DNA of 64,000 bases, taken from assembly GCA_964392925.1 (NCBI GenBank), contig CAYMRP010000001.1, positions 229,585 through 293,584 of the forward strand, given 5' to 3'. The position numbers and the translations under genes are program-made. Within the stretch, counting starts at the first letter, position 1; every line of letters begins with the position of its first letter. The notes under the pieces were generated by a model. It was not told the origin of the DNA, made no database searches, and worked only from the letters and a program-made list of their open reading frames with translations. The stretch is from an uncultured Gammaproteobacteria bacterium. GTDB taxonomy: Bacteria > Patescibacteriota > Microgenomatia > Daviesbacterales > UBA10151. Below are positions 1,768 through 14,704 of the stretch, piece by piece.

Positions 1768-2682
1768 CTAAGGGCACTTCACTGTAGTAGGCGTTGAAAA
1801 TCCGGAGTACTGGATAGCTGTTGGATTTAGCACATTCGCAATAGCATATTGAGCGTAATAAACCACACTATCTGTTATCGTCACATTCACAATCTGATTA
1901 GTTCCTGATTGGGCGGCCTGAGAAGTTGAATTAATATCAGATGCACCACTAGTCGTCCCAACCTGCATTTTATAAAAAGCGACTCCATCAACAGATGGAA
2001 AATTGATATTCGCACTCCACATATTGTTAGCAGCCTTAGTGCCGCAGGTAATTGTTGCAGTTCCGCTTGGAGCAGAAGGCGCTGTCGAAGCATTAAGCGA
2101 AAAAACCTGATTTAATGCTGGAGCTGTTACTACATAAGTTTGAGAAGCAGCATAATCAGTATCAACTCCGTTTGAGGATCCTTTCAAAATAGCTATCAAA
2201 TCATAACTACTGCCGATAGTTGCCGTACTCCACGTCCATTTTGAATTGCTCGTAGCCGAAATTCCACTAACTACAGTTTTAAATGAGTCTGTCGTCCCAG
2301 TTTTTCGGGCTACGATTACGATTGATGTCCCTGTCGGTGGACTTCCTACTAAACTGATACTTCCAGAAATTGCAGAACTTCCGGCAGTAGTTTGACTGGC
2401 CCCATCAGTATTGTCTTGCAGTACAGTTAATGTCCCAATGCTTGATTTAAGTGGTGTCGGTTTTGTTGTTGGTTTTACAGATCCAGTAGGCTTAGTAGAT
2501 GCTCTAGGAGCCTCGGAGGACACGGGTAATGATTCAGCAGCTGTGTTATCTCTGGTTGTTAAAATTGGCGAGGGGAGAGGAGTTGGACCGGGTTTATCCA
2601 AAAATATTTTATAAACTCCAAATATTAAAATCAGAGTCCCTATCGTCACTCCGCCTAAAATAAGCCCAAACTTTAGAGTCAT
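1768..2682 (-). CDS. Paralog of the upstream gene: anchored surface protein with a Pro/Thr/Ser-rich linker, one CarboxypepD_reg-like repeat and the same C-terminal Cys-containing domain (..VKCP)
   Basis: The C-terminal 200 aa align residue-by-residue with the 241-1671 product (ISGSISLVGSPPTGTSIVI..ITCGTK..VVYYAQYA..KCP). The ORF track starts at 2718 with a TTG. The in-frame ATG at 2682 directly precedes the TM segment MTLKFGLILGGVTIGTLILIFGV. Confidence 0.7.
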   Translation of the reverse strand: MTLKFGLILGGVTIGTLILIFGVYKIFLDKPGPTPLPSPILTTRDNTAAESLPVSSEAPRASTKPTGSVKPTTKPTPLKSSIGTLTVLQDNTDGASQTTAGSSAISGSISLVGSPPTGTSIVIVARKTGTTDSFKTVVSGISATSNSKWTWSTATIGSSYDLIAILKGSSNGVDTDYAASQTYVVTAPALNQVFSLNASTAPSAPSGTATITCGTKAANNMWSANINFPSVDGVAFYKMQVGTTSGASDINSTSQAAQSGTNQIVNVTITDSVVYYAQYAIANVLNPTAIQYSGFSTPTTVKCP

Positions 2683-2761
2683 AGGTTTAATTTTGGAGTA
2701 TCTGCGATGTTTGTTCAAGTCTCACGAGAATTTATAAGTAAAGAGGGTGGATTAATTGAAT

Positions 2762-2798
2762 AAGTAAAGAAAGTTCCACGGGTTTTTAAGGCCCGTGG
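2762..2798 (-). terminator. Rho-independent terminator downstream of the RRM gene
   Basis: A 7-bp GC-rich stem, ccacggg (2776-2782) paired with cccgtgg (2792-2798), sits 34 bp after the stop at 2832. On the minus strand it is followed by the T-rich tract AACTTTCTTTACTTAT. Confidence 0.5.
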
Positions 2799-2831
2799 CA
2801 CCCTCTGTTTAAGCGTAAGCTCACGCTTCGC

Positions 2832-3125
2832 TTATCTGTCTTCCCTTGGTCTAGCTTCGTTCACAACGATCTTTCTACCATCCATATCGGAGTTGTTCAA
2901 TTTTTCAATTGCCTCCATAGCTTCTGCGTCATTTTCCATTTCAACAAAACCGAATCCGCGTGAACGGCCGGTCATTCTGTCTTGTAGTACAACTGCACTA
3001 ACTACTGATCCGAATTGAGAAAAAAGGTCTCCTAATTTCTGGTCATCAACTGCCCAGGGAAGGGAGCCTACAAAAAGTTTTTTAATAGTAATCACCGCCA
3101 ATCTAGTATTAGAGAGCCTTAACAT
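2832..3125 (-). CDS. RNA-binding protein with an RRM domain (bacterial Rbp family)
   Basis: RNP2 (KLFVGSL) and RNP1 (RGFGFVEM) motifs are present. The size is typical at 97 aa. An alternative GTG start lies at 3095. Confidence 0.85.
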   Translation of the reverse strand: MLRLSNTRLAVITIKKLFVGSLPWAVDDQKLGDLFSQFGSVVSAVVLQDRMTGRSRGFGFVEMENDAEAMEAIEKLNNSDMDGRKIVVNEARPREDR

Positions 3126-3245
3126 TACTAGACTAACAGTCTGAAATGAATCTGCTTAAACTAACCACTACAGGAATTGTACGTCCCCCATAGTAAAAAT
3201 GCAATATTAGTAAAATTTTGTGAAGATGCTGTCAAAACGCTCTAA

Positions 3246-3779
3246 TTACTTAGCTTCTGAAATCTGAAGGGGAAGTTCTTTCAGGGTTTCACTTAATTTA
3301 TTCTTTTGCTCATCTGTCATCTGTGAACTTAAAAATAATAATGCTTTTTCTTGATTCTCAAAAGATTTAACCAGCTTATTTGTCAATTCTAAAGTATCAG
3401 CTTTTTCCTCAACAGCCCTCTTTTTTAGCTTCAAAGCTTCAACTCTGGCTTCTGTATTAAGCTCGATAGATTTTACCGCATTCCCAAAATCCTTATCTTC
3501 AGTAAGCTTTGCCGCTTCAACTAATCTTTTTTCCGATAGCTCGAGTTGATACTCAGATTTAGCCACAGTTCCGAATATAAACATCCCACCGAAAGTTTCT
3601 TTTAATTGTTTAAACATAAACATTGGGTCCCCCAAAGTTTTACCAGGAACGACCGGCCAGAATAACCCATAAACATCCACTTTAGCTGAATCAGATGCTT
3701 GTTCATCCTTGGCAAAAACAGGTGTCAGAAGCAAAGTGAAAACTAAAACAAAAGCTGTAAAGCTGTATAAGAATCTCAT
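3246..3779 (-). CDS. Secreted coiled-coil protein, hypothetical (possibly a periplasmic chaperone-like helical protein)
   Basis: A signal peptide (MRFLYSFTAFVLVFTLLLTPVFA) is followed by a K/E-rich heptad-like helical sequence. Confidence 0.5.
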   Translation of the reverse strand: MRFLYSFTAFVLVFTLLLTPVFAKDEQASDSAKVDVYGLFWPVVPGKTLGDPMFMFKQLKETFGGMFIFGTVAKSEYQLELSEKRLVEAAKLTEDKDFGNAVKSIELNTEARVEALKLKKRAVEEKADTLELTNKLVKSFENQEKALLFLSSQMTDEQKNKLSETLKELPLQISEAK

Positions 3780-3901
3780 AGCTCCCTAATCTAATCAGTA
3801 ATCAATTTAACTGTCAAGCAGACACATAGATTTATAACCTATAGTTGACTTTCATATTATCCAGGCCTATAATTTGCCTAATTCCTGCCCGGAGAAGTTT
3901 T

Positions 3902-4519
3902 ATGGCAGGATTTTTTGGATTTCTGGCTTTCGTCAGTTTTATATTTTTAGTACTAAGCATATTTAAGCCTGCTTTGGTTCAAAGTATTCTCAAAAGAGAA
4001 TTTACTAGAAGCAGGGGCATAAAATACTTTGGAGGAGGGCTGTTAGGACTACTAGTGTTAGCCGGAGTTTTTACTCCAAGTGTTTCTGTTGAGTCTGACA
4101 AAATTCAAGGTGTTGCTACAGAAAATCAGATTGAAAGTTCTGCCTCACCATCTGTAACCCCTTCTCTAGAGCCTGTGCCTTCTCCTTCAGAGATTCCTTC
4201 ACCTACACCACAACCCTCGGCTGCCGCATCAATCACTCCAAGCCCAACAGTAAAACCGACCCCAAAACCAACAGTCACACCTACTCCTAAGCCATCAGTC
4301 GCTGCAAAGCCAATAGTCATCCCTACGCCAACAATCGCACCAACCCCCGCTTCTACAATAGCTCCTGCTCCACAACTAACTTCAGCTGATAAAGATTGTA
4401 AAGACTTCTCCAGTCATTCCGAAGCGCAAGCCTATTTCAATTCTAAAGGTGGAAGTGCTTCTAATAATGTTGACGACTTAGATAGAGATCATGACGGACT
4501 AGCTTGCGAAAGCCTGTAA
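3902..4519 (+). CDS. Membrane-anchored protein with a PT-rich linker and a C-terminal Excalibur calcium-binding domain
   Basis: The C-terminal motif DDLDRDHDGLACE matches the Excalibur DxDxDGxxCE signature. The linker is long and P/T/S/A-rich. An N-terminal TM segment is present. The ORF track starts at 3845, and I prefer the ATG at 3902 directly before the TM segment. Confidence 0.7.
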   Translation: MAGFFGFLAFVSFIFLVLSIFKPALVQSILKREFTRSRGIKYFGGGLLGLLVLAGVFTPSVSVESDKIQGVATENQIESSASPSVTPSLEPVPSPSEIPSPTPQPSAAASITPSPTVKPTPKPTVTPTPKPSVAAKPIVIPTPTIAPTPASTIAPAPQLTSADKDCKDFSSHSEAQAYFNSKGGSASNNVDDLDRDHDGLACESL

Positions 4520-4526
4520 CTCTAGA

Positions 4527-5075
4527 TTATTCCAATCCTTCCATTAAACTATAAATCTTCCTGGCAGTATTACAATTTCTAATCGTCATCTGAGAATACA
4601 ATTTTGTCCCCACCAGCTTCATAATTCCACTTCTGGTGACATTCTTCTTATCCACCATCCATAAAACCGCCCCCTCAACATACTTAACATTATCAATATC
4701 CGAGTTTATAGTCAGGTCCTCTATAACTTCTTTTTTATCAACTTCATTCCATAAAAACATCACATCACATTTCATTTCCGCATCATTTTTCCAGGAGTCG
4801 GGGAGAGTCTCAACAATCTTTTTAATAGTCCTCATTTCTTTGATAACGACTTTGATATTAAATTTAAATTGATGGTGAATAGCTGCTTCTAGAATCTCAG
4901 AAATTTTGTGTGGATCAGATAGTTTACTTTTAAATATTACATTCCCTGAATTAATATAAGTTATAACTGACTCCATTCCGGCTTTCTCAAAGACCTCTTT
5001 TAACGTCTGCATACTAACTTTATTATTCCCGCCAACATTAATTCCCCGTAAAAGCGCTACATATATATTACTCAT
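4527..5075 (-). CDS. DUF1697 family protein
   Basis: The N-terminus YVALLRGINVGGNNKVSM...YINSGNVIF is the DUF1697 hallmark. The ORF track begins 10 codons upstream at 5105. Confidence 0.75.
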   Translation of the reverse strand: MSNIYVALLRGINVGGNNKVSMQTLKEVFEKAGMESVITYINSGNVIFKSKLSDPHKISEILEAAIHHQFKFNIKVVIKEMRTIKKIVETLPDSWKNDAEMKCDVMFLWNEVDKKEVIEDLTINSDIDNVKYVEGAVLWMVDKKNVTRSGIMKLVGTKLYSQMTIRNCNTARKIYSLMEGLE

Positions 5076-5134
5076 AAGGCAATTATAACTTACTACTAAA
5101 TTCATATAAAAAAAGTGCTACACTAAATTCAGAA

Positions 5135-5479
5135 ATGAAAAAAGTAGTTACCGCTCAAATCCTTATTCTTCTATCAGTTATTCTTTTAGGCGCTACACTT
5201 AAATTTAATCTGGAATCTGACATCAGAATTTTTCATCGCGTATTCGGAATACTTGCAGCCTTAGTCAGTATGACAACCGCCGGATTCGCTTTTAAAACTA
5301 ATCAATCCGGCCTAATTAAAACTCTTGCAATCGGAGCGCTACTTTTAACAATCAGCGCTGCAGTCGGCGGCAGCTCTCTCGCCACTACCTCAAACTACGA
5401 CCTATCGTATGCTCAAATGTTTCTATCCGGCACCCTCGCCTTCCTCCTAACCTTGGTACTCTTTTTTAAAGTAAAGTAA
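5135..5479 (+). CDS. Small integral membrane protein (3-4 TM helices), hypothetical
   Basis: Hydrophobic segments are present throughout the ORF. No motif was recognised. Confidence 0.45.
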   Translation: MKKVVTAQILILLSVILLGATLKFNLESDIRIFHRVFGILAALVSMTTAGFAFKTNQSGLIKTLAIGALLLTISAAVGGSSLATTSNYDLSYAQMFLSGTLAFLLTLVLFFKVK

Positions 5480-5592
5480 ATCACGAAGTTTAAACTAATC
5501 CAGAGTAATTCATTTCAAAACTTTGTATCTAATATGGGTAATGACATTAGTCCCGCCAACTTCAATCGGCTCAAGTTTCAGATTAATAAACA

Positions 5593-6903
5593 CTATGGAA
5601 GTTTACGAACATTATGCCCCATCTTTTCAGCAATTGCCTCAGCAACTTTTCTTGTTCCATACGGAACTCTAATTGCACCAACCATAACATAACAATCTTC
5701 AGTTAAAGATCCTCGTTTGAGTCTGGGCTCGTATTTGCGTTTACCAACCAAAAGTTTTTTCATCTCTTCGGCAGAGTATGCAAAATCTGATATACAGTTA
5801 TTTGTGTCGTCGAATAGTTTTATGTCAATATCAGGAGCAGGTTCTTGGCTCCATATGTAATACAGGTTTTGCAGAACTCCCCATACCTGATGTTTGTACT
5901 TCACTTTGGACTCGATATCTAACAGATCATATCTCTCACCATTTCCCATTATTAACTCAGAAGATATCCCAACGTGCTTTTCAAAATAATGTAATTCGAG
6001 CGATAATAAATTCTTTTCTTTTTCATATTTAAAGTTTTTCACTTTTAACCATCTTGTTTCTCCAAAGGCTATAGTTCTATGTTCAATCTCGCGTAACTTC
6101 ATTGGTCTAATTTTGCTCAATGCTTTACTAAAGTTGGGATTATTTGCCATGAAAAGCATAACTCCGTTACGCAATATCCAAAGAGTTTTCCTGCATTTAT
6201 CAATCAGTCGGGTGATATCAGTTTGGGTTAGTTCTCGTTTACCTTTGTTTCTGCCAGTATGAGGATCAATATCATGCAAGATAATAGTTTCGTTATCTGT
6301 CAGCTCATATCTATCATGCCCCTCTCCTGCGTTCCTGATTGTGTTATCGAAGCCATCGACAAAGTCTTTCAGATCACCTTGTGGAATCACTAACTTTATG
6401 TCTTTGAGAGTTTGATATTTATTTCCTCCGGCTACTTCAACATACGTATCAGCTGTACTTGCACCTGACTTTTTACCATAACTTGTTACGGCAAAATAAT
6501 ATGGAATTGTTGCCCATAATCTAAACTCACTCTCAAAGAATACTTTATAGTGCCTGAGAGAGGCTGAGAATATCTTGAGGATGTCTTTTTCTTTTTCATT
6601 TCGAGCGTCATAATACTCTTTTTCAGAAATAGCAATTCTCTCGGTAGAATCATGGACTTGATCAAGCATGTAGGAAATTAATTGAGGAAAGTCGTTATGA
6701 TAATTTTTATACAGCTGTTCACAAATATGCTCAACAAAAAGCATGTTTTGAATATCTTTCTTTTTAACTGTGAGTCTCCATGCCAGCCAACTCTGTTCCA
6801 AAAAATAATAGTAATTTTCATGAGGTAGCTCATGCTTCAAATACGGACGGAAAGTGTCTGAGAAAAAACGTTCTTGAATTGCAAATCCTGGTTTACCGAG
6901 CAT
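5593..6903 (-). CDS. Hypothetical 436-aa cytoplasmic protein, operon partner of the AlbA_2 protein (candidate defence-module effector)
   Basis: The ORF is long and clean with no TM segment, no P-loop and no domain I can recognise. It is co-oriented with the AlbA_2 gene and 4 bp downstream of it. Confidence 0.6.
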   Translation of the reverse strand: MLGKPGFAIQERFFSDTFRPYLKHELPHENYYYFLEQSWLAWRLTVKKKDIQNMLFVEHICEQLYKNYHNDFPQLISYMLDQVHDSTERIAISEKEYYDARNEKEKDILKIFSASLRHYKVFFESEFRLWATIPYYFAVTSYGKKSGASTADTYVEVAGGNKYQTLKDIKLVIPQGDLKDFVDGFDNTIRNAGEGHDRYELTDNETIILHDIDPHTGRNKGKRELTQTDITRLIDKCRKTLWILRNGVMLFMANNPNFSKALSKIRPMKLREIEHRTIAFGETRWLKVKNFKYEKEKNLLSLELHYFEKHVGISSELIMGNGERYDLLDIESKVKYKHQVWGVLQNLYYIWSQEPAPDIDIKLFDDTNNCISDFAYSAEEMKKLLVGKRKYEPRLKRGSLTEDCYVMVGAIRVPYGTRKVAEAIAEKMGHNVRKLP

Positions 6904-6908
6904 AATAA

Positions 6909-7868
6909 TTAAACGATTGACTTTGCTTGAGCCACAAGCTCCCTTGCTGTGGGATAATTTTCAAAAAGATAATCCATAGCTTTTACTGCGTTTGCTTCAA
7001 TTTTTTTAGCTCTATCAGCAATGTCATTATTGCCATTAATAATGATCTGTTCCATGTTACTCATTGGTAAAACACTTTGAGCAGAAAGCCTATCTCGTTG
7101 ATCGTCAGCTAACGCTAACTGCTGTCGAAGAGGGAATAGATGTCTCATAAGCTTGACATCATTACCCAATACTCTCAGTAGGTTTCCACTCTCTTTAGAG
7201 ATAATGGAATTGAACTTGTTGGGTAAACTGTTGTTGCTACCTGCCTGTACCATATTCTGTTTGCAAGTTGCTGTCACACTTTCCAAATCCAAATACAGTG
7301 CGTTTACCCAGCCTCTTTCCTCCTTTGACTGATCGATTTCTAATAAAAGATGTGTGTAGTCCATCGCTCTCGCTGTTCCCGATCCACGCGCCCAAAATTC
7401 AAGTGTTGTATCTTGAGCCTTTTTAATTGCATGCGGACGTTTATCGCTCTTGGGGATTTTAACAATAACAACATGTTTGCCTCCTATCTTGATTACTTTA
7501 ATTTCTTCGAAACTGATTATTGGAATTGTTAATCCTTTATCGAGATATTTCTGGGTAATTCTTTTACCAACTTCTTTCGCATCTGTAATTCCAACAATCC
7601 TTTCGAGCTTTGTCTTTCCGGCTGTATTGCTTGCATCTAGAATGCCGAAAAATAAAAATCCTCCAAGAGTATTTGCGAAGGTGGCAAATGCTTTTCTGAT
7701 AGAATAAACTTTATCCGCTTCTAAACTATCAAATCCTTCTTTGAAGTCGAAGTAAAGATCCTCTTCGTTACCATTTATCAGAAGGTCTTTAATGACATCC
7801 TCTGTAATTTCTTCAATTTTTGTATTTTGGTTTATCTGAAGTCCCATAAAGTATGCATATTCTATCAA
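6909..7868 (-). CDS. AlbA_2 (Schlafen-like / divergent-AAA N-terminal DNA-binding) domain protein
   Basis: The N-terminal about 130 aa match the AlbA_2 pattern (EDLYFDFKEGF ... FANTLGGFLFFGILD ... IVGITD). The C-terminal about 180 aa are uncharacterised. The gene lies 145 bp from the 3' end of tRNA-Lys. Confidence 0.65.
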   Translation of the reverse strand: MIEYAYFMGLQINQNTKIEEITEDVIKDLLINGNEEDLYFDFKEGFDSLEADKVYSIRKAFATFANTLGGFLFFGILDASNTAGKTKLERIVGITDAKEVGKRITQKYLDKGLTIPIISFEEIKVIKIGGKHVVIVKIPKSDKRPHAIKKAQDTTLEFWARGSGTARAMDYTHLLLEIDQSKEERGWVNALYLDLESVTATCKQNMVQAGSNNSLPNKFNSIISKESGNLLRVLGNDVKLMRHLFPLRQQLALADDQRDRLSAQSVLPMSNMEQIIINGNNDIADRAKKIEANAVKAMDYLFENYPTARELVAQAKSIV

Positions 7869-8014
7869 AAAAGTTGTGGCCCATCCTGTCGCATATTAAT
7901 TTTGGCAAGTCTGAGAGCCCAGTCAAATTGAACATAACAGCCTTGAGACGCAACTAAAAGCTTGTCGAGCATATGCCGAACGAGATGGATGGCAAGTAGT
8001 TGAAGTTTTAAATT

Positions 8015-8089
8015 TGGTGAGCCGAGTGGGATTCGAACCCACAACCGATGGATTAAGAGTCCATTGCTCTACCGTTGAGCTATCGGCCC
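8015..8089 (-). tRNA. tRNA-Lys (anticodon CTT), CCA encoded
   Basis: The reverse complement folds as a cloverleaf: acceptor GGGCCGA/TCGGCTC, anticodon stem ATGGA/TCCAT with loop CTCTTAA, T-loop GGTTCGAATCC, and a 3' ACCA. Confidence 0.9.
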
Positions 8090-8169
8090 GTTTTCTGCGG
8101 ATACTGATCACACTAAATGTACCCGTCAATAACACAGGTATTATACTCAATCTGAGCTTAGATTTCTAA

Positions 8170-8418
8170 CTAATCCATCCCGCGTCTTCCATCTTCCGCA
8201 TTTTGGACCTCTGCAGCCAGATTTAATTCTTGTGGATGTGCTCCGTCATCACCTTTATAAAGGCCCATGTCATGCGCATTCTCCAGCATATCATCATCAG
8301 ATTCTAAATCAGCTGTATCGCCGTCTATTGCTTCCTCACCTGTTAGCGCAATCTTCTCAACCTCACTATGCTTCTTATCCTCACGTAGATGATCCTTGTC
8401 GCTTTGATTCTTTGCCAT
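8170..8418 (-). CDS. Small highly acidic hypothetical protein (82 aa, D/E-rich, likely disordered)
   Basis: The ORF has a GGGGTGA purine tract upstream of its ATG. The composition is low-complexity acidic. The call is speculative. Confidence 0.3.
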   Translation of the reverse strand: MAKNQSDKDHLREDKKHSEVEKIALTGEEAIDGDTADLESDDDMLENAHDMGLYKGDDGAHPQELNLAAEVQNAEDGRRGMD

Positions 8419-8518: not shown

Positions 8519-11485
8519 ATGTCTGTTTTCACGAAACTATTGACAACTGTTCAGAATAGTATAAGTATTAGTGAAGTGAATATAAATTCCAAAGGATTTC
8601 TGTCAATTCTTTTAACCATCGGCCTGCTAATAGGTGGAGTCGTCGCTGGAGTATTTATAGTGAATGATCCTACGAATTTCTTTTCTAAAGCTGCTACCCC
8701 CGATATCTCTTTTGAGTCACACTATAATCCTTTCGGAGATCCCTGGTCTCGCAAATTAGCCGCTAACCCTGATATCCCTGTTGCTTTAACTACTGGCTGC
8801 TATAGAAGGGGCCCCAAATATACAGGCAGAGAAACTGACCCATCCGTTGACCAACTTGAAATAGACTATTTGGCCAAGTCAAATTCGCCTATCATCTTTG
8901 AAGAGTGCGCTATCTTGCAGGGTGCCAATTCAGCGCCAACTTCGAACAGACAGCGTTTAATTAATATTGCAACAAAGTTAAAGCAAACTAACCCCAATGT
9001 TAAATACATTGGCTACCATGTCTTCTTTGATGTAAATTTTGACGGTAATTTGGGATCTGATATTTGGGGTGCTGCAGCAAATGATCAAATGTGTGGAAGT
9101 GTAAAATGCGAAACATTCTTTATTCATAAGAAAGGACTTCCGCCGACTAAGGCAAATAGAATTACTGGGGCCAGAACTTTTGATATAACTAATCCTAATT
9201 TTCGAGCATATATAGTTCCTAAAGTAGTTCAGGCTATGAACGAAATGAATATGGATGGCTTTCTAGCAGATGGAGTTGGCCCAACTATTCCCGGTATAAA
9301 TATGGCTGAGGTCCCCGATAATATTGCCTCTAGTTGGGGAGCCGGTTGGGCCGACTTACTTAGAGATACCAAGGCTGCCATGGGTCCAAATAAACTGTTA
9401 TTTGTTAATTCAGGTGGTAGGGGAATCGACTTCACTCGAACTGTACTTTCAAATGAATCCGGCAGCGGCAAACCTCGGGCTGATGGGGTAATGTGGGAAG
9501 ATCCGATGGGAAGTCTCGCAGCTGATCTAGGGTCTTCAGGTCGTCTTAGCGAGCTCAATTCAATGATTAACATGACAACTAGTTTGAATAAGTATTTGAT
9601 GATTGTTGTAAATACTAACGTCAACTGCCAAAACTCCTCAGGCCAGCCCGTTGGTTATTGTTTCAGTCAAACTAACCGCGAAAACGAAAGAAATTTCGCC
9701 CGCTATTATCTAGCCTCATTCCTTAACCTGTATAGGAACAGTAAAACCTTGCTTGTTTATTACACCCCTGTCCAAACCAGCCCTCAATTCGATTCTGAGA
9801 CATTTTTCAGAGAATGGGACTTAAAAATAGGCCAGCCAGTCAGCGGTATGGAGGAGGTTGCTGCTGGGGTTTATCTCAGAAGGTTCCAGAATGGTTATGT
9901 CTACTGGAATAATTCTTATAGTAACTACAATGGTGCCGGTGTTGGACTCTACAATTTAGATGGAACTCCTGCATCCTCTCATTCTGTACCCGCTAAACGA
10001 GGAGTTATATTCGTGACTCAACAAGTTCTACAAGATTGGAATACTGGCTCAGCTTCTCCTTCACCCTCCTCTGTGCCTTCACCTTCTTCAAACACCGGAA
10101 CACCACCTCCTGTTCAAACAGTTGTCACCTCGGCAGTAACCAAACTTGAAAGTACCGCCAAACCTAACTACTTCAACTATTTCTATACTACAAAGCAAAA
10201 CGAAATTGATTTTCTTTTACCAAGAAATTGGAGATCAGTTTCTACCTCTATATTTTACGCACCTAAAGCCGGAACACCAGGTTCTGAACCCGTTTACCGA
10301 ATGTATAAAAATGATTCTGCTAATGGTATTCAAATTCTGACCTGGGCTCTAGACGTAAACGATAGAAACAGAATTAAATCTCTTGGTTTCTCTGAATCAA
10401 ACGACAATGACTTCTTCGCCTACAAAACCAGTCAGCCAAGCAGTATCGGTGTCACCAGGATGAAATATTTTTCTTCTACCTATAATCAAACTTTCTATGA
10501 ATTTGCTAAAAATCAATCCGAAATTACCAGCCTTCAGCAAAAGGGCTGGACTGTCGATACATCAAACGCCTTCTATTTATATAATGTTGCCAATCCAGTC
10601 ATCGTCGTACCATCTCCTAGTGCAACTCCAACACCTACCCCAACGGCAACTCCGACCCCCACACCAACTCCACAAATTAAGCCTAATATTGTACCTTCAA
10701 AATCACTCTCTTATTGCGGAGCTACAGGTGCTATCAATCACTTAGAATGGTTAGCTGTTCCAAACGGTGTCTTTTACAGAATCCTTAGAACCACTCCTGG
10801 GGTAACAGGCAGTGTTAAAGTTGGAGAAACCTCAGGCACTGGACTAAATAATACATATCTAACTTCAGGTACTCAGTATACTTATGTTGTCGAGGCAGAC
10901 GTTACAGGCGGCGCAGTTATTAAGGGTGATGGTTATACAATTGTGGCAGCTGTTTGCTCTACACCAACTCCAACACCAACTCCAACACCAACTCCAACAC
11001 CAACACCAACACCAACCGTAGTTCAAACATCTGTAGTCAAAAAACTCGAACATCAAGCCAGAAGTAATTACTTTGAGACCTTCTTTAGCGCCAAACAAAA
11101 TGAAATTGATTTCCTTAAAAGCCGGGGTTGGTTTGAAGCCGGAATCGCTTTTAGAGCACCTATAGCTGGCACTCCTGGAGTAATAATGGCCAAGAGAATG
11201 TATTTAAGTGATAGTGCTAATGGGGCTCAAATCAGAACTTGGGCAATTAATCAGTCAGATATTGATGATCTAAAAAGTAAAGGCTATCTTCAATCAAATG
11301 ACAGTGATTTCTTTGCCTATCCAACTATGCAAAGCGGCACAGTTGGTGTAACTAGAATGAGAATGTTTTCCTCAAGTTATAACAGGACATTTTATACTTT
11401 CTCAACCAGCTCCGCCCAAACAAACTCACTAGCAAATCAAGGCTGGACAATTGATAAAACAAACGTTTTCTACATATTTCCATAA
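8519..11485 (+). CDS. Giant N-terminally anchored surface protein: putative glycoside-hydrolase-like TIM-barrel region, PT linkers, an FN3-like module and two copies of a novel about 145-aa C-terminal module
   Basis: The TM anchor is SKGFLSILLTIGLLIGGVVAGVF. The hydrolase-like region carries MDGFLADGVGP and FFIHKKG. Linkers are PTPTPTATPTPTPTP. The FN3-like module is bounded by Cys residues (SYCGATG...AAVC). The C-terminal module occurs twice (KPNYFNYF..KQNEIDFL...GVTRM..F...GW) and the protein ends FYIFP. The likely true start is the GTG at 8576, giving MNINSKGF, which matches the paralog's N-terminus. Confidence 0.8.
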   Translation: MSVFTKLLTTVQNSISISEVNINSKGFLSILLTIGLLIGGVVAGVFIVNDPTNFFSKAATPDISFESHYNPFGDPWSRKLAANPDIPVALTTGCYRRGPKYTGRETDPSVDQLEIDYLAKSNSPIIFEECAILQGANSAPTSNRQRLINIATKLKQTNPNVKYIGYHVFFDVNFDGNLGSDIWGAAANDQMCGSVKCETFFIHKKGLPPTKANRITGARTFDITNPNFRAYIVPKVVQAMNEMNMDGFLADGVGPTIPGINMAEVPDNIASSWGAGWADLLRDTKAAMGPNKLLFVNSGGRGIDFTRTVLSNESGSGKPRADGVMWEDPMGSLAADLGSSGRLSELNSMINMTTSLNKYLMIVVNTNVNCQNSSGQPVGYCFSQTNRENERNFARYYLASFLNLYRNSKTLLVYYTPVQTSPQFDSETFFREWDLKIGQPVSGMEEVAAGVYLRRFQNGYVYWNNSYSNYNGAGVGLYNLDGTPASSHSVPAKRGVIFVTQQVLQDWNTGSASPSPSSVPSPSSNTGTPPPVQTVVTSAVTKLESTAKPNYFNYFYTTKQNEIDFLLPRNWRSVSTSIFYAPKAGTPGSEPVYRMYKNDSANGIQILTWALDVNDRNRIKSLGFSESNDNDFFAYKTSQPSSIGVTRMKYFSSTYNQTFYEFAKNQSEITSLQQKGWTVDTSNAFYLYNVANPVIVVPSPSATPTPTPTATPTPTPTPQIKPNIVPSKSLSYCGATGAINHLEWLAVPNGVFYRILRTTPGVTGSVKVGETSGTGLNNTYLTSGTQYTYVVEADVTGGAVIKGDGYTIVAAVCSTPTPTPTPTPTPTPTPTPTVVQTSVVKKLEHQARSNYFETFFSAKQNEIDFLKSRGWFEAGIAFRAPIAGTPGVIMAKRMYLSDSANGAQIRTWAINQSDIDDLKSKGYLQSNDSDFFAYPTMQSGTVGVTRMRMFSSSYNRTFYTFSTSSAQTNSLANQGWTIDKTNVFYIFP

Positions 11486-14400
11486 ATGAATTTAAACTCT
11501 AAAGGCTTTTTATCTATATTCTTGACTATCGCATTGCTGGTTGGGGGAATTGTTGCCGGCACCTATCTAGTTAAGAATCCGAAACTGTTCTTCTCTAAAG
11601 CTGCGGAATCTCCAACTAGTTTCCCTGACTATGTTAAAACCTTCCGTCTCCAAAATCCTAAATCAGAGATGGAAAAGTTCCTTAATCCATTTGGGGAAAC
11701 ATGGGAATCAAAACAATCCACTAATCCAGATATTCCGGCTATGTTAGCCGGTGCATTTGACCGGACAAAAAGCGGCAGCTACGGGATCTCAGATCGGGTA
11801 GCCTCATTTAGTAGATTACTTCCTAGTTATTATCCTAATCAACTCCCTCAGCCAGGTACAAATTATTATTTAGATTTAACTGAAGGCTACAAAAATCTGC
11901 TTCGCAATGCAAATACTCCTTATACTTTTTACAATCAAGGCGGCGGTATTTTCTCTAATCGTCCGCGCTATAACATGCCTTCATCCAATATCGTAATAAG
12001 AGAGCTCGACAAAATTAACCCTAATTTAAAACAGAACAGTTATTACGTAGTAAATTTTGTTGAGGAGACCGATCTTGCAGGTTATGAAAACTTAAAAGAG
12101 CAGTGGTATATTCATCGTAAAGGAACAGATGCATCAAAACCGGAAAACAGATTAAAAGCAGCTGGAGGTCAGGACGTGCTTGATGTAACTATTCCAGAAT
12201 TTCAGCAGCATATGGCAACCGGTGTAGCCAAAGCCATGCAGGACAATCAATTAGATTGGCTTTTAGTTGATGGAGCTGGTGATGGATTAAATAGACCCCG
12301 GCTTCTAAATAGCGAAAGCCCCTCAGTTTATCCGGATCATTTTAATTCTCAAGCTTATTTCACTGGAACTCTCCAAACATTAGGCGCTTTAAAAGCCAAA
12401 CTCAATCCTTTAGGTAAAGAGGTTATTTTTAATCCTATCCAGCCAGATTCTATTGGTGATGAAAGAATAGCTCAAGTCCAAAAATACCTAGAAGTCACTG
12501 ACGGAGCATATTGGGAAAACCCCTTCAGAACTGGAAACCGTGATTACTTTGCCTCTACGAATGGACCAGATTACTATTACACTCAACTGCAGAAGTTTTT
12601 TGATTTGGCCAATTCAATGAACAAAAAACTGATAATTGAATCAGACACTGTTAATGATTATCGCCAGGATCCAAATAATAATTGTCCCTTAGTTTTTCAG
12701 TGTGAATACGCAGAAATTCTGGCAGAAAAAGGATACTATGAAGCACTGGTATATGAACAGAAAATAGCCAGAAGACATCTTGGAATGTATTTGCTTTTTC
12801 AAACCAATCCGTTAACTAATCTCTACTCTCATTACACTTTGGCGGAGCCATTAAGTTACGAAACAAGCGAAGCCACTTTCGCTGATTATGACTTAAAGAT
12901 TGGCAAGCCTTTAGCCAAAATGGAAAAAATAGCTAATAATATTTTTAAACGCCAGTTCGAAAACGGCATAGTTTTCGTAAATTACTCAAAAGCTCCCTAC
13001 ACAATTGCTAGCAATGTTCTGACTTGCGATAACTATAATCAAGGTGTCTGCCAAAAACCCCACTATGTAACCGCTGACGGCCTACCTGTCACAGCTTACA
13101 CATTAGAGCCTGAAACAGCTCAAATATTTGTATTACCAACTGTTCTGACCCCCTATAATCCATCATTTGAAACTGTTTGGAATTGGAAGCCTAATCAGTT
13201 TGAGTGGGGATCAATCGATTACAAAAAAGCTCGTACTGGACGATCATCATTAATGATTCCGCCAAATAGTACCGGCAGTCCCGGCCTAACTCAGTCCTTT
13301 ATTTTCAAGCCTAACACCCAGTATCAATGGAGAGGTTATGTTAAGTCTGACAAGAGTATAAAACCAAACATCACTGTCGCATATGGTCCAGTTGGGACAA
13401 CAGTGGCTTCTCCTGCCAAATCAGTGCCCGTAGCTGGAGGAGTATATGTATACGCTGATAATTTACCTATCGGCACTAACGATTGGCAAGAAGCTAAAAT
13501 AATGTTTTCTACTGGATCTCAAGGGGGATATGGTAATTTCCTTGTCGTAGGAGAAGCTAATAATAGTGGCACAGTTTGGTTTGATGATGTCACCTTATTA
13601 GAAGTCGGCCCTGTCACTCCAACTGTCAGTTTCTCCAGTGCATCAACCTCTACCTATTGTCTAACCCCAACGCAACCCCGGGTTCACTTGCAGTGGAATC
13701 CCATCGGAGGCACTACTTATTATCGGGTTTTCCTAAATAATGCTGATGGAACAAAAACCCAGCTTTATGACGGAGATGGAATAGCTATCAACCTGGATAA
13801 TCTTCAAAGCAACAAGTCATACACATTTTCTCTCGAAGCTAGAACAAATTGGAATGGTACACCGATAGGCTCTGCAGCCACAACGCTCACTACGGCTACT
13901 TGTTCAGCACCCACTCCTACGCCTATAGCCAAGCCTAATGTTATTGCAGCCAAAACTTCCAGTTATTGCAACGGTGCCTCACCAATAATCCATATTGAAT
14001 GGAATTCAATTCCGAATACTGCAATCTACAAAGTTTTTAGATCTACAACAGCTCCGGGCAGTGGTATCAAGGTCGGGGAGACCTCAGGCACCGCTATGAA
14101 TGATACAACTCCTACCTCGGCTACATCCTATACTTATACAATCGAGTCAACATTCTCAAACGGTAGTTTCGTTCAGTCCGATCCATATACGATTCAAGCG
14201 ACCGCCTGCGCAACACCTTCACCATCGACCGCTCCTGTAGTTCAAAAAATAGATGTCAAACGTTTAGATCACTCTGTTAAGCCAAATTATCTTGAGAAAT
14301 TCTTTACCGCAAAACAAAACGAGATAGACTTCTTAAAAAGTAGAGGCTGGAGTGAAGCAGGAATAGCTTTCAAGGCTCCGGTCGCCGGATCCTCAGGTGC

Positions 14401-14704
14401 AATAATGGCCAAAAGATTGAGTCTAACTGACGCGGTCAATGGTGCCCAGATCAGGACTTGGGCCATAAGTTCATCTGAGATAACTGAGTTCAAAAATCTA
14501 GGCTTTGCAGAAGCGGCTGATAGCGATTTTTATGCCTATCCGACTCAGCAACCGGGAACGATCGGTGCAGTTCGTATGAAGCTCTTTAGTGGTACCTATA
14601 ACAAGACATTTTATACTTTCGCTTTTAGCACCACCGAAATCAGTTCACTAACAGCCCAAGGCTGGTCAGTGCAAAAAGCTAACGTTTTCTACATCTTCCC
14701 TTAG
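11486..14704 (+). CDS. Giant paralogous surface protein: GH-like TIM-barrel region, a CBM_4_9-like beta-sandwich, two FN3-like modules and one copy of the novel C-terminal module
   Basis: The start codon immediately follows the stop of the upstream paralog. The N-terminus MNLNSKGFLSIFLTIALLVGGIVAG matches the upstream protein. Shared motifs are WLLVDGAGDG and WYIHRKG. The CBM-like segment carries FETVWNWKPNQFEW...WFDDVTLLEV. The C-terminal module carries KPNYLEKFFTAKQNEIDFLKSRGW and the protein ends FYIFP. Confidence 0.8.
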   Translation: MNLNSKGFLSIFLTIALLVGGIVAGTYLVKNPKLFFSKAAESPTSFPDYVKTFRLQNPKSEMEKFLNPFGETWESKQSTNPDIPAMLAGAFDRTKSGSYGISDRVASFSRLLPSYYPNQLPQPGTNYYLDLTEGYKNLLRNANTPYTFYNQGGGIFSNRPRYNMPSSNIVIRELDKINPNLKQNSYYVVNFVEETDLAGYENLKEQWYIHRKGTDASKPENRLKAAGGQDVLDVTIPEFQQHMATGVAKAMQDNQLDWLLVDGAGDGLNRPRLLNSESPSVYPDHFNSQAYFTGTLQTLGALKAKLNPLGKEVIFNPIQPDSIGDERIAQVQKYLEVTDGAYWENPFRTGNRDYFASTNGPDYYYTQLQKFFDLANSMNKKLIIESDTVNDYRQDPNNNCPLVFQCEYAEILAEKGYYEALVYEQKIARRHLGMYLLFQTNPLTNLYSHYTLAEPLSYETSEATFADYDLKIGKPLAKMEKIANNIFKRQFENGIVFVNYSKAPYTIASNVLTCDNYNQGVCQKPHYVTADGLPVTAYTLEPETAQIFVLPTVLTPYNPSFETVWNWKPNQFEWGSIDYKKARTGRSSLMIPPNSTGSPGLTQSFIFKPNTQYQWRGYVKSDKSIKPNITVAYGPVGTTVASPAKSVPVAGGVYVYADNLPIGTNDWQEAKIMFSTGSQGGYGNFLVVGEANNSGTVWFDDVTLLEVGPVTPTVSFSSASTSTYCLTPTQPRVHLQWNPIGGTTYYRVFLNNADGTKTQLYDGDGIAINLDNLQSNKSYTFSLEARTNWNGTPIGSAATTLTTATCSAPTPTPIAKPNVIAAKTSSYCNGASPIIHIEWNSIPNTAIYKVFRSTTAPGSGIKVGETSGTAMNDTTPTSATSYTYTIESTFSNGSFVQSDPYTIQATACATPSPSTAPVVQKIDVKRLDHSVKPNYLEKFFTAKQNEIDFLKSRGWSEAGIAFKAPVAGSSGAIMAKRLSLTDAVNGAQIRTWAISSSEITEFKNLGFAEAADSDFYAYPTQQPGTIGAVRMKLFSGTYNKTFYTFAFSTTEISSLTAQGWSVQKANVFYIFP

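What the first reader, a model, noticed from the sequence alone, without database searches (positions are those of the whole stretch)
5593..8089. tRNA-Lys-adjacent two-gene operon: AlbA_2/Schlafen-like protein plus unknown 436-aa partner, a candidate novel defence module
Directly 3' of tRNA-Lys(CTT), 145 bp away, is a tight two-gene operon with a 4-bp spacer. The first gene has an AlbA_2 N-terminal domain (FANTLGGFLFFGILD ... IVGI). This is the Schlafen-like DNA/RNA-binding module that recurs in abortive-infection and anti-phage systems. Its about 180-aa C-terminal region is uncharacterised. The second gene encodes a 436-aa cytoplasmic protein with no motif I can recognise, no P-loop and no obvious nuclease signature. 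tRNA 3' ends are classic insertion hotspots for defence islands, and no housekeeping role is evident for either gene. The nearest + strand neighbour, a small membrane protein, is encoded convergently. No integrase is present, so this would be a fixed or miniature island.
Basis: partly seen in the sequence, partly recalled or inferred. Interest (0 to 1): 0.7.

Follow-up and report, generated by a model that had tools for sequence, protein, structure and literature searches.

The report
Schlafen tRNase plus new HEPN gene
Next to a tRNA-Lys gene sit two accessory genes that both look like RNA-cutting anti-phage effectors, one from the recently characterised bacterial Schlafen group and one from a rare, undescribed HEPN-like family, but nothing shows that they work as a pair.

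Summary
tRNA-Lys(CTT) lies at 8015-8089 on the minus strand. Gene A is 6909-7847 (312 aa from the ATG). A 5-bp spacer follows, then gene B at 5593-6903 (436 aa).

Gene A is a prokaryotic Schlafen (PF04326) nuclease. It keeps the catalytic Ex4DxK triad in register with the solved tRNase CbCash. Its C-terminal part is a generic four-helix bundle.

B loci elsewhere lie beside restriction-modification genes, a PtuA-like ATPase, serine or tyrosine recombinases, and tRNA or tmRNA genes. No other B locus carries an A-like gene, and no A-homologue contig carries B.

Best reading: a small defence islet holding two probably independent RNase effectors, not a proven two-gene system. B is a new HEPN-type family; A is a new member of a known kind.

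The parts
8015..8089 (-). tRNA-Lys(CTT), with an encoded CCA end; the putative island anchor
   Evidence: ARAGORN. Rfam tRNA at 75.8 bits.
7899..7995 (-). Two sigma-70-like promoter matches between the tRNA and gene A (7995-7968 and 7926-7899); weak evidence only
   Evidence: Consensus scan. The region holds 20 such matches against 11.6 expected from shuffles.
6909..7847 (-). Gene A, 312 aa (or 319 aa from the TTG at 7868): prokaryotic Schlafen nuclease with a C-terminal helical domain
   Evidence: Pfam PF04326 at E 4.9e-14. A3 profile against the solved Schlafen tRNase CbCash (9ylu) at E 8e-8. Only 7 clusters in 5.8 billion proteins.
7740..7763 (-). Catalytic motif E-D-L-Y-F-D-F-K (Ex4DxK) of the Schlafen domain: E29, D34 and K36 in 312-aa numbering
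   Evidence: Read from the sequence. Conserved in the 6 A3 sequences that cover it; the seventh, P0026, is N-terminally truncated. D34 and K36 align with CbCash D22 and K24. Motif definition from PMC13056530; CbCash triad E17/D22/K24 from PMC13462974.
7362..7763 (-). Schlafen/AlbA_2 domain of gene A
   Evidence: Pfam match to residues 36-169 of the 319-aa ORF.
6915..7358 (-). C-terminal four-helix-bundle domain of gene A (residues 164-311); no specific relative, a putative sensor or oligomerisation module
6904..6908 (-). 5-bp spacer TTATT between the stop codon of A and the ATG of B
   Evidence: Sequence. No terminator-like site lies in it.
5593..6903 (-). Gene B, 436 aa: member of an undescribed HEPN-like family
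   Evidence: No curated family match. 19 relatives in 5.8 billion proteins. 100 representative clusters in 1.84 billion. AF2 model with pLDDT 86.7 and pTM 0.79.
6142..6582 (-). Predicted HEPN core of B, residues 108-254. Order: helix carrying Ex3R, insert, short helix ending in R190, loop with a beta-hairpin, long helix 227-254.
   Evidence: Secondary structure of the model, compared with the HEPN description in PMC3710099.
6520..6534 (-). E124-S-E-F-R128, the HEPN Ex3[KR] motif
   Evidence: E124 is invariant in 43 sequences. R128 is invariant in the 15 closer ones.
6316..6336 (-). R190-N-A-G-E-G-H196, the HEPN Rx4-6H motif with N after the R
   Evidence: R190 is invariant; N191 and H196 are at least 90% conserved in 43 sequences. 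Divergent members read RN[AS]x[AS]H.
5596..6048 (-). C-terminal alpha/beta domain of B, residues 286-436; function unknown

Best explanation
The stretch 5593-8089 is a small accessory (defence-type) islet downstream of tRNA-Lys. It carries two separately evolved, predicted RNA-cleaving effectors.

**Gene A** is a prokaryotic Schlafen nuclease. By analogy with RorSlfn5 and CbCash, it would be held inactive until its C-terminal four-helix bundle senses a phage cue or changes oligomeric state. It would then cut tRNA loops with its E-D-K/Mg2+ site and stop translation.

**Gene B** belongs to an undescribed HEPN-like family. Its Ex3R and RN-x4-H residues would form a metal-independent RNase site, active as a dimer as in other HEPN enzymes. 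Its N-terminal helical extension and C-terminal alpha/beta domain would act as regulatory or target-binding parts. It would work as a single-gene, abortive-infection-like or element-addiction effector that is carried as cargo on tRNA-targeting integrative elements.

The two genes are probably co-transcribed here, but they most likely act independently.

**Shown:** gene structures, domain and motif content, rarity, and genomic associations. **Inferred:** RNase activities, triggers, the defence phenotype, and independence of the two genes.
For: **Gene A**
- PF04326 match above the curated cut-off.
- The family profile hits CbCash at E 8e-8. D34 and K36 align with its catalytic D22 and K24, and E29 sits at the spacing of E17.
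- Prokaryotic Schlafens carry the Ex4(E/D)xK motif, and two of seven tested systems protected E. coli from phage. 17.2% are fused to unannotated domains (PMC13056530).
- The 51%-identical A homologue in L019 sits 216 bp upstream of a type I HsdM gene.

**Gene B**
- In a 43-sequence alignment the only invariant residues besides the start Met are Y119, E124 and R190. K162, N191 and H196 are at least 90% conserved. These form Ex3R and Rx5H, and divergent members read RNxxxH.
- In the model, R190 ends a short helix and opens a loop, and E124/R128 sit in an earlier helix. This matches the published HEPN layout (PMC3710099).
- The sub-threshold Pfam matches that fall on the motif region are all to HEPN families. 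PF18736 is hit by 4 of the 10 most divergent members (E 0.04-0.2) and by their consensus (E 0.0016-0.002). PF18733 and PF09509 (Ymh) also appear.

**Genomic context of B homologues**
- Type II REase plus MTase (L022, L029), type IIG enzyme (L031), type II REase plus D12 MTase (L030), PtuA/AriA-like ATPase (L010) and type III restriction-modification genes (L006).
- The most recurrent neighbour family is a large serine recombinase, found at four loci with 23-55% identity among them. Tyrosine integrases occur at L006, L010 and L033.
- A tRNA or tmRNA lies within 4 kb at 9 of about 20 distinct loci. B starts 38-60 bp after the tRNA in L027 and L030.

**Independence of A and B**
- B occurs alone (L011-13, L027, L030) or after unrelated upstream genes: a ParB_N protein, a RibD_C protein and unknowns of 160-371 aa.
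- No A-like gene or A C-terminal domain is found among 132 neighbour ORFs of 21 other B loci.
Against: - No HEPN model reaches its curated threshold. hhalign and hmmsearch against the pEK499_p136 protein are not significant.
- In the model the Rx5H motif is followed by a beta-hairpin before the next long helix. I have not seen such an insert described for HEPN.
- In the window there is no integrase, no att-like repeat of the tRNA 3' end and no compositional deviation. Island status here therefore rests on comparison with other loci.
- The baseline chance of a tRNA within 4 kb is high in a 1-Mb CPR genome, about one in three by my estimate.
- The 5-bp spacing and the published Schlafen-HEPN fusions (MAE_18760 family, PMC3710099) leave room for functional coupling of A and B.
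- Neither family is found in IMG/VR, and no experiment exists for either.
Confidence: 0.6

Rival explanations
1. A and B form one two-gene system. The Schlafen protein and the HEPN protein would work together, for example with one sensing and licensing the other, or as a complex with two RNase activities. This would be a split version of the Schlafen-HEPN fusion proteins already catalogued.
For: - Same strand, 5-bp spacer and no terminator-like site between the genes. Promoter-like sites occur upstream of A and also within the A coding region.
- HEPN domains of the MAE_18760 family are fused to Schlafen domains (PMC3710099).
- B homologues often follow a nucleic-acid-related gene closely: a ParB_N protein at a 12-bp gap in L001, and unknown genes at a 1-bp gap (L007) and a 34-bp gap (L003).
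Against: - The pairing is unique. There are 0 of 21 other B loci with an A-like gene and 0 of 5 A-homologue contigs with B.
- The closest B homologues (62-65% identity) have other upstream genes: an unrelated 371-aa gene in L003, and in L014 a 118-aa ORF 240 bp away on a contig with no A match.
- B occurs alone right after tRNA genes (L027, L030).
- Short gaps are common in this genome: 6 of 27 are 10 bp or less.
- Each protein has its own catalytic site plus an extra domain, as single-gene effectors do.
Confidence: 0.2
2. B is not a defence effector. It would instead be a maintenance or addiction gene, or another function, of tRNA-integrating mobile elements. Alternatively it would be a toxin whose antitoxin is the variable upstream gene, with A filling that role here.
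For: - The most recurrent neighbour is a large serine recombinase, at 4 loci. Tyrosine integrases occur at L006, L010 and L033.
- Truncated or chimeric copies (L033, L009) suggest turnover.
- HEPN toxins in toxin-antitoxin pairs are well known (PMC3710099).
Against: - Several loci have no upstream partner at all (L027, L030, L011-13). A dedicated protein antitoxin is therefore not a family feature.
- No repeat or Rfam RNA that could serve as a type III antitoxin is present.
- The frequent restriction-modification neighbours fit a defence island as well as they fit addiction.
- A carries an intact nuclease triad, which is odd for an antitoxin.
Confidence: 0.12
3. B is not a HEPN enzyme at all. 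The R...H and E...R residues would serve another role, such as ligand or protein binding in a new helical fold, and the protein would have some unrelated accessory function.
For: - No significant match to any HEPN profile or structure.
Against: - Exactly the two HEPN signature motifs are the most conserved positions of the family. They have the correct order, a polar N after the R, and the expected placement in the secondary structure.
- The weak Pfam matches on the motif region are all to HEPN families.
Confidence: 0.08

Closest known systems
Prokaryotic Schlafen nucleases (pSlfn; RorSlfn5, EcoSlfn7; CRISPR-associated CbCash, PDB 9ylu)
   Same: Gene A has a PF04326 domain at its N-terminus with the catalytic Ex4DxK triad. 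The domain is fused to a C-terminal non-catalytic domain. One homologue sits next to a restriction-modification gene.
   Different: The C-terminal domain is a plain four-helix bundle. It is not an Ig-like, DUF262, histidine-kinase, Csx15 or NACHT domain. The A family is tiny (7 clusters). No trigger or activity is known. Only here is it followed by a HEPN-like gene.
HEPN superfamily Abi-type RNases (AbiD/F, AbiJ, AbiU2, pEK499_p136-like PF18736, LA2681, Ymh)
   Same: Gene B has the Rx4-6H motif with N after the R, an upstream Ex3R motif in a helix, and an all-helical core. Its family sits in restriction-modification and defence neighbourhoods and on mobile elements. It occurs alone or with variable nuclease-type neighbours (ParB, REase, Schlafen).
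   Different: B matches no existing HEPN model at threshold. It is far larger than minimal HEPN proteins (436 aa against 166 aa for pEK499_p136). It has a 100-residue N-terminal helical extension, a beta-hairpin after the motif and a 150-residue C-terminal alpha/beta domain. Close members have a 5-residue spacer (RNAGEGH). 4 of the 5 named genomes are CPR bacteria.
MAE_18760-type Schlafen-HEPN fusion proteins (Anantharaman et al. 2013)
   Same: They combine a Schlafen domain and a HEPN domain in one locus.
   Different: In those proteins the two domains are in one polypeptide and belong to a different HEPN family. Here they are separate genes whose pairing is not conserved.
HEPN-MNT type II toxin-antitoxin systems
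   Same: They have a HEPN RNase as the toxic component and a two-gene layout.
   Different: No MNT nucleotidyltransferase accompanies B in the loci whose neighbouring genes were scanned. The upstream gene varies or is absent.

Membership tests
Prokaryotic Schlafen nuclease (PF04326 / pSlfn) - gene A | Significant match to the SLFN_AlbA_2 domain | tested here: met
   Pfam at E 4.9e-14 and 53.3 bits against a cut-off of 25.3. The family profile hits CbCash at E 8e-8 and SLFN5, SLFN8 and SLFN11 weakly.
Prokaryotic Schlafen nuclease (PF04326 / pSlfn) - gene A | Catalytic Ex4(E/D)xK motif at the start of the domain | tested here: met
   E29-DLYF-D34-F-K36 is conserved in the 6 family members that cover it. 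D34 and K36 align with CbCash D22 and K24. Motif from PMC13056530 and PMC13462974.
Prokaryotic Schlafen nuclease (PF04326 / pSlfn) - gene A | Fusion to a non-catalytic (sensor) domain | tested here: met
   Residues 164-311 form a confidently modelled four-helix bundle with no specific relative.
Prokaryotic Schlafen nuclease (PF04326 / pSlfn) - gene A | tRNA cleavage and phage protection | not testable with these tools
   Needs biochemistry and phage challenge.
HEPN superfamily - gene B | Conserved Rx4-6H motif with a polar residue (N, D or H) after the R | tested here: met
   R190 is invariant. N191 and H196 are at least 90% conserved in 43 sequences. The motif reads RNAGEGH in close members and RN[AS]x[AS]H in divergent ones. 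Definition from PMC3710099.
HEPN superfamily - gene B | Upstream conserved acidic residue, typically Ex3[KR], in an earlier core helix | tested here: met
   E124 is invariant and E124-x3-R128 lies in helix 108-130.
HEPN superfamily - gene B | Motif at the end of a core helix and the start of the following loop, within an up-down helical bundle | tested here: inconclusive
HEPN superfamily - gene B | Significant profile match to a described HEPN family | tested here: not met
   The best result is PF18736 at E 0.0016-0.002 and 18 bits against a cut-off of 26.6, obtained with a subgroup consensus. Single members give E 0.04-0.2. hhalign against pEK499_p136 is not significant.
HEPN superfamily - gene B | Metal-independent RNase activity | not testable with these tools
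   Needs an enzyme assay with R190A and H196A controls.
Known PADLOC defence systems - the pair | Match of both genes to the models of one catalogued system | tested here: not met
   A gives only a weak domain-level match to PDC-S50 (E 1.9e-4, over the Schlafen domain only). B gives none.
tRNA-integrated genomic island - the locus | Integrase or recombinase plus a direct repeat of the tRNA 3' end | tested here: not met
   No integrase gene was seen among the ORFs near the locus. No repeat of the tRNA 3' end occurs in 2500-8300. Composition equals the window mean. Related B loci do show recombinases next to a tRNA or tmRNA.
Conserved two-gene operon - the pair | Co-occurrence of homologues of both genes in other genomes | tested here: not met
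   tblastn of A and B against all fetched loci, neighbour clustering and a profile search of 132 neighbour ORFs find no second A-B pair.

The most novel reading that the evidence does not exclude
B founds a previously unrecognised, CPR-enriched family of large HEPN-type effectors. These would ride on tRNA-targeting serine-recombinase elements and constitute a new single-gene anti-phage system. In this genome B would be wired to a Schlafen tRNase as a dual-RNase module, a split form of the Schlafen-HEPN fusions, in which the two enzymes act on the same RNA pool such as tRNA.
Probability: 0.15. Interest if true: 0.65.

Novelty: new variant of a known kind. Interest (0 to 1): 0.45.

Why it matters
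CPR (Patescibacteria) bacteria have tiny genomes, and to my knowledge few recognised defence systems. The B family has no model in Pfam, NCBIfam, PHROGs or PADLOC. If it is an active HEPN RNase that travels with restriction-modification genes and recombinases, it would add a defence or addiction effector that current annotation pipelines miss.

Gene A extends the newly characterised bacterial Schlafen tRNases with a helical-bundle partner domain. The locus also gives a natural case for testing whether Schlafen and HEPN RNases cooperate.

The gain is incremental. Both enzyme classes and their link to defence islands are already known, and nothing here has been tested experimentally.

Tried and rejected
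1. **Presence/absence of the pair at tRNA-Lys in close relatives.** The flanking DUF1697 gene has no homologue above 65% identity, and the best long contig is not syntenic. No close relative genome is available, so the test could not be done.
2. **att-type repeat of the tRNA 3' end.** None found in 2500-8300.
3. **Compositional signal of recent transfer.** None. GC, GC3 and codon usage of A and B equal the window average.
4. **Phage origin.** Neither family is found in IMG/VR. One scan attempt with A2 failed because the alignment was too divergent.
5. **Structure searches for B.** Foldseek against the PDB gave nothing significant. The afdb50 library was unavailable. The PDB sequence-profile search gave only a weak bS18-like stretch with A1 (E 0.26-1.1), and this disappears with A2. 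I rejected it as chance.
6. **Profile-profile test against the pEK499_p136 HEPN family.** Plasmid homologues are too similar to each other (at least 78% identity) to build a useful profile. Comparisons with the single sequence are not significant, although the two motif blocks are collinear with similar spacing, 69 against 66 residues.
7. **A shared adaptor domain among the variable upstream partners of B.** None found.
8. **A type III antitoxin-like RNA or repeat.** None found.
9. **Names from source databases.** None available for A, B or the closest homologues.
Full report
**1. Observation**

ARAGORN and Rfam place tRNA-Lys(CTT) at 8015-8089 on the minus strand. Two minus-strand ORFs lie downstream of it on the same strand.
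- ORF A runs 6909-7868 from a TTG (319 aa). The ATG at 7847 gives 312 aa and is the start used by the public gene call (P0020).
- ORF B runs 5593-6903 (436 aa).
- The stop codon of A and the ATG of B are separated by TTATT, which is 5 bp and not 4.
- The tRNA-to-A distance is 146 bp to the TTG or 167 bp to the ATG.
- The next gene (5135-5479, plus strand, 114-aa hydrophobic protein) is convergent with B.

Both ORFs align over their full length with homologues from other samples, so they are real genes.

**2. Gene A is a prokaryotic Schlafen nuclease**
- Pfam SLFN_AlbA_2 matches residues 36-169 at E 4.9e-14. The PADLOC match (PDC-S50, E 1.9e-4) and the PHROG match ('DNA helicase') cover only this domain.
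- A profile of the seven family members (A3) hits the solved CRISPR-associated Schlafen tRNase CbCash (9ylu) at E 8e-8, and mammalian SLFN5, SLFN8 and SLFN11 weakly.
- Two 2026 papers define the catalytic motif of prokaryotic Schlafens as Ex4(E/D)xK. The named residues are RorSlfn5 E15/D20 and CbCash E17/D22/K24 with Mg2+ (PMC13056530; PMC13462974).
- A reads E29-D-L-Y-F-D34-F-K36. The motif is conserved in the 6 A3 sequences that cover it; the seventh, P0026, is N-terminally truncated. D34 and K36 align with CbCash D22 and K24.
- The papers report that 17.2% of pSlfn proteins carry unannotated fused domains. They also describe a Schlafen cluster with unknown C-terminal domains that associates with restriction-modification systems.
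- Consistent with this, the 51%-identical A homologue in L019 is followed 216 bp later by a type I HsdM gene. Another homologue (L015) lies beside an integrase fragment and a weak, sub-threshold GIY-YIG match.

The A family itself is tiny, with 7 clusters in 5.8 billion proteins.

**3. Gene B is a member of an undescribed HEPN-like family**

B and 14 relatives match nothing significant in Pfam, and B matches nothing in NCBIfam, PHROGs or PADLOC. A word-indexed search found 19 relatives. An exhaustive HMMER search of 1.84 billion representatives found 100 at E 1e-3 or better. Most of them are 400-460 aa and align over nearly the whole profile; the rest are shorter, mostly fragments.

*Conserved motifs.*
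- In a 43-sequence alignment that reaches down to 14% identity, the only invariant residues besides the start Met are Y119, E124 and R190. K162, N191 and H196 are at least 90% conserved.
- These residues make E124-x3-R128 and R190-N-A-G-E-G-H196. The most divergent members read RN[AS]x[AS]H.
- Anantharaman et al. (PMC3710099) give the HEPN signatures as follows: Rx4-6H with a polar N, D or H after the R, placed at the end of core helix 3 and the start of the next loop; and an upstream Ex3[KR] in an earlier core helix.

*Structure model.*
- The AF2 model has pLDDT 86.7 and pTM 0.79.
- It places E124/R128 in helix 108-130 and R190 at the end of helix 187-191. A loop follows, then a beta-hairpin (207-225) and a long helix (227-254).
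- The rest of the protein is an N-terminal helical extension and a C-terminal alpha/beta domain (286-436).

*Database support.*
- The sub-threshold Pfam matches that fall on the motif region are all to HEPN families. PF18736 (pEK499_p136) is hit by 4 of the 10 most divergent members and by their consensus at E 0.0016-0.002. PF18733 and PF09509 also appear.
- Foldseek against the PDB and profile searches against PDB sequences find nothing.
- A direct comparison with the pEK499_p136 protein is not significant. The two motif blocks are nevertheless collinear with nearly the same spacing.

I therefore read B as a HEPN-type RNase. Membership is supported by the motifs and their placement, but not by any profile at threshold.

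**4. Context of B elsewhere**

I examined about 20 distinct loci. Of the five named genomes, four are CPR bacteria (Roizmanbacteria, Vogelbacteria, Kaiserbacteria, Paceibacterota) and one is an Elusimicrobia MAG.

| Locus | Neighbours of B |
|---|---|
| L022, L029 | type II REase (E 1e-22) and MTase (E 4e-132) |
| L031 | type IIG enzyme (E 6e-82) with a helicase |
| L030 | type II REase (E 3e-57) and D12 MTase |
| L010 | PtuA/AriA-like ATPase (E 2e-37) and an SNase-domain protein |
| L006 | type III restriction-modification genes |
| L001 | ParB_N protein 12 bp upstream |

- Clustering of 132 neighbour ORFs shows that the most recurrent neighbour is a large serine recombinase, found in L001, L010, L030 and L034 at 23-55% identity. 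Tyrosine integrases occur in L006, L010 and L033.
- tRNA or tmRNA genes lie within 4 kb at 9 loci. In L027 B starts 60 bp after tRNA-Gln, and in L030 it starts 38 bp after tRNA-Ser. In L001 the island begins at the tmRNA gene.
- B also occurs alone between efp and rpsR (L011-13).
- One truncated copy (L033) and one chimeric copy (L009) exist.

This is the pattern of accessory cargo on integrative elements and in defence islands. It is not the pattern of a housekeeping gene.

**5. Is the pair a module?**

Probably not a conserved one.
- tblastn of A and B against all fetched loci finds no second pair.
- The closest B homologues (62-65% identity) have other upstream genes: an unrelated 371-aa gene in L003, and in L014 a 118-aa ORF 240 bp away on a contig with no A match.
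- Profile searches find no A-like protein or A C-terminal domain among the neighbours of B.
- Short gaps are common in this window, with 6 of 27 at 10 bp or less.

On the other side, co-transcription here is likely, because there is no terminator-like site between the genes. Schlafen-HEPN fusions are also on record (MAE_18760 family, PMC3710099). I therefore keep functional coupling as a 0.2 rival.

**6. Island status in the window**

No integrase gene was seen among the ORFs around the locus. There is no att-like repeat and no compositional deviation. No close relative genome is available for a presence/absence test. The immediate neighbours are secreted or miscellaneous accessory proteins. 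'Fixed mini-islet' is therefore an inference from the behaviour of the B family elsewhere.

**7. Mechanism (inferred)**
- A would be kept inactive until its helical domain senses a cue. It would then cut tRNA loops through the E-D-K/Mg2+ site, as RorSlfn5 and CbCash do.
- B would dimerise to form a composite HEPN site from Ex3R and RNx4H. It would cleave RNA without metal and arrest growth of the infected cell, or stabilise the element that carries it.

**8. Verdict**

The defence reading is supported, and the 'novel two-gene module' reading is not. A is a new member of a known, recently validated class. B is a new, rare, large variant within the HEPN theme and has no existing model. Overall novelty: new variant of a known kind. 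Interest: moderate (0.45).

Noticed in passing
window 5596-5780 (B residues about 375-436); L011-L013: The A1 profile of B weakly resembles the conserved N-terminal motif of ribosomal protein bS18 (E 0.26-1.1 for seven S18 chains). In L011-13, B lies next to rpsR. The similarity disappears with the broader profile A2, so it is probably chance.
   Followed up: partly
L009 8001-9194 (P0018): A 397-aa ORF joins a UvrD-helicase N-terminal part to the last 171 residues of a B homologue that is 60% identical to the window's B. It is probably a remnant or an assembly or gene-fusion artefact.
   Followed up: no
L033 1578-2155: A truncated B copy (residues 1-186, 64% identical to the window's B) sits directly after a 188-aa tyrosine-integrase gene. 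It looks like a decaying island copy.
   Followed up: partly
L006 9365-10219 and L010 9311-10159: A 282-284-aa gene overlaps the stop codon of B by 4 bp in both loci. The two copies are 53% identical to each other and have no Pfam or PADLOC match. This is a clade-specific downstream partner of B that is absent from the window.
   Followed up: partly
L001 3935-9320: A compact island starts at the tmRNA gene. It holds a 151-aa ORF, a serine recombinase, a MerR-like 269-aa protein, a ParB_N protein with two matched stretches (350 aa) and then the B homologue. A rhomboid gene follows.
   Followed up: partly
window 4527-5105: The nearest non-self homologues of this DUF1697 gene are only 65% identical, and the named ones are mostly from Bacillales. 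The contig that carries the best homologue on a long contig is not syntenic. The window's genome has no close relative in the collections searched.
   Followed up: partly
window 8519-14704: Two very large plus-strand ORFs (988 and 1072 aa) are adjacent. The first has Pro/Thr-rich linkers and GHL15 and DUF5648 domains, and is probably a secreted or surface protein.
   Followed up: no
window 8017-8089 (+): Rfam gives sub-threshold 'Plastid-ycf2' and 'Plastid-psbl-rps4' matches on the strand opposite the tRNA. This is an artefact of those models containing tRNA-like sequence.
   Followed up: no
L003 6851-7966 and L007 7121-7999: The genes upstream of B at these loci (371 and 292 aa) have no family match. 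By eye they contain D...(D/E)xK-like stretches that could be restriction-endonuclease-fold nucleases. This was not tested.
   Followed up: no
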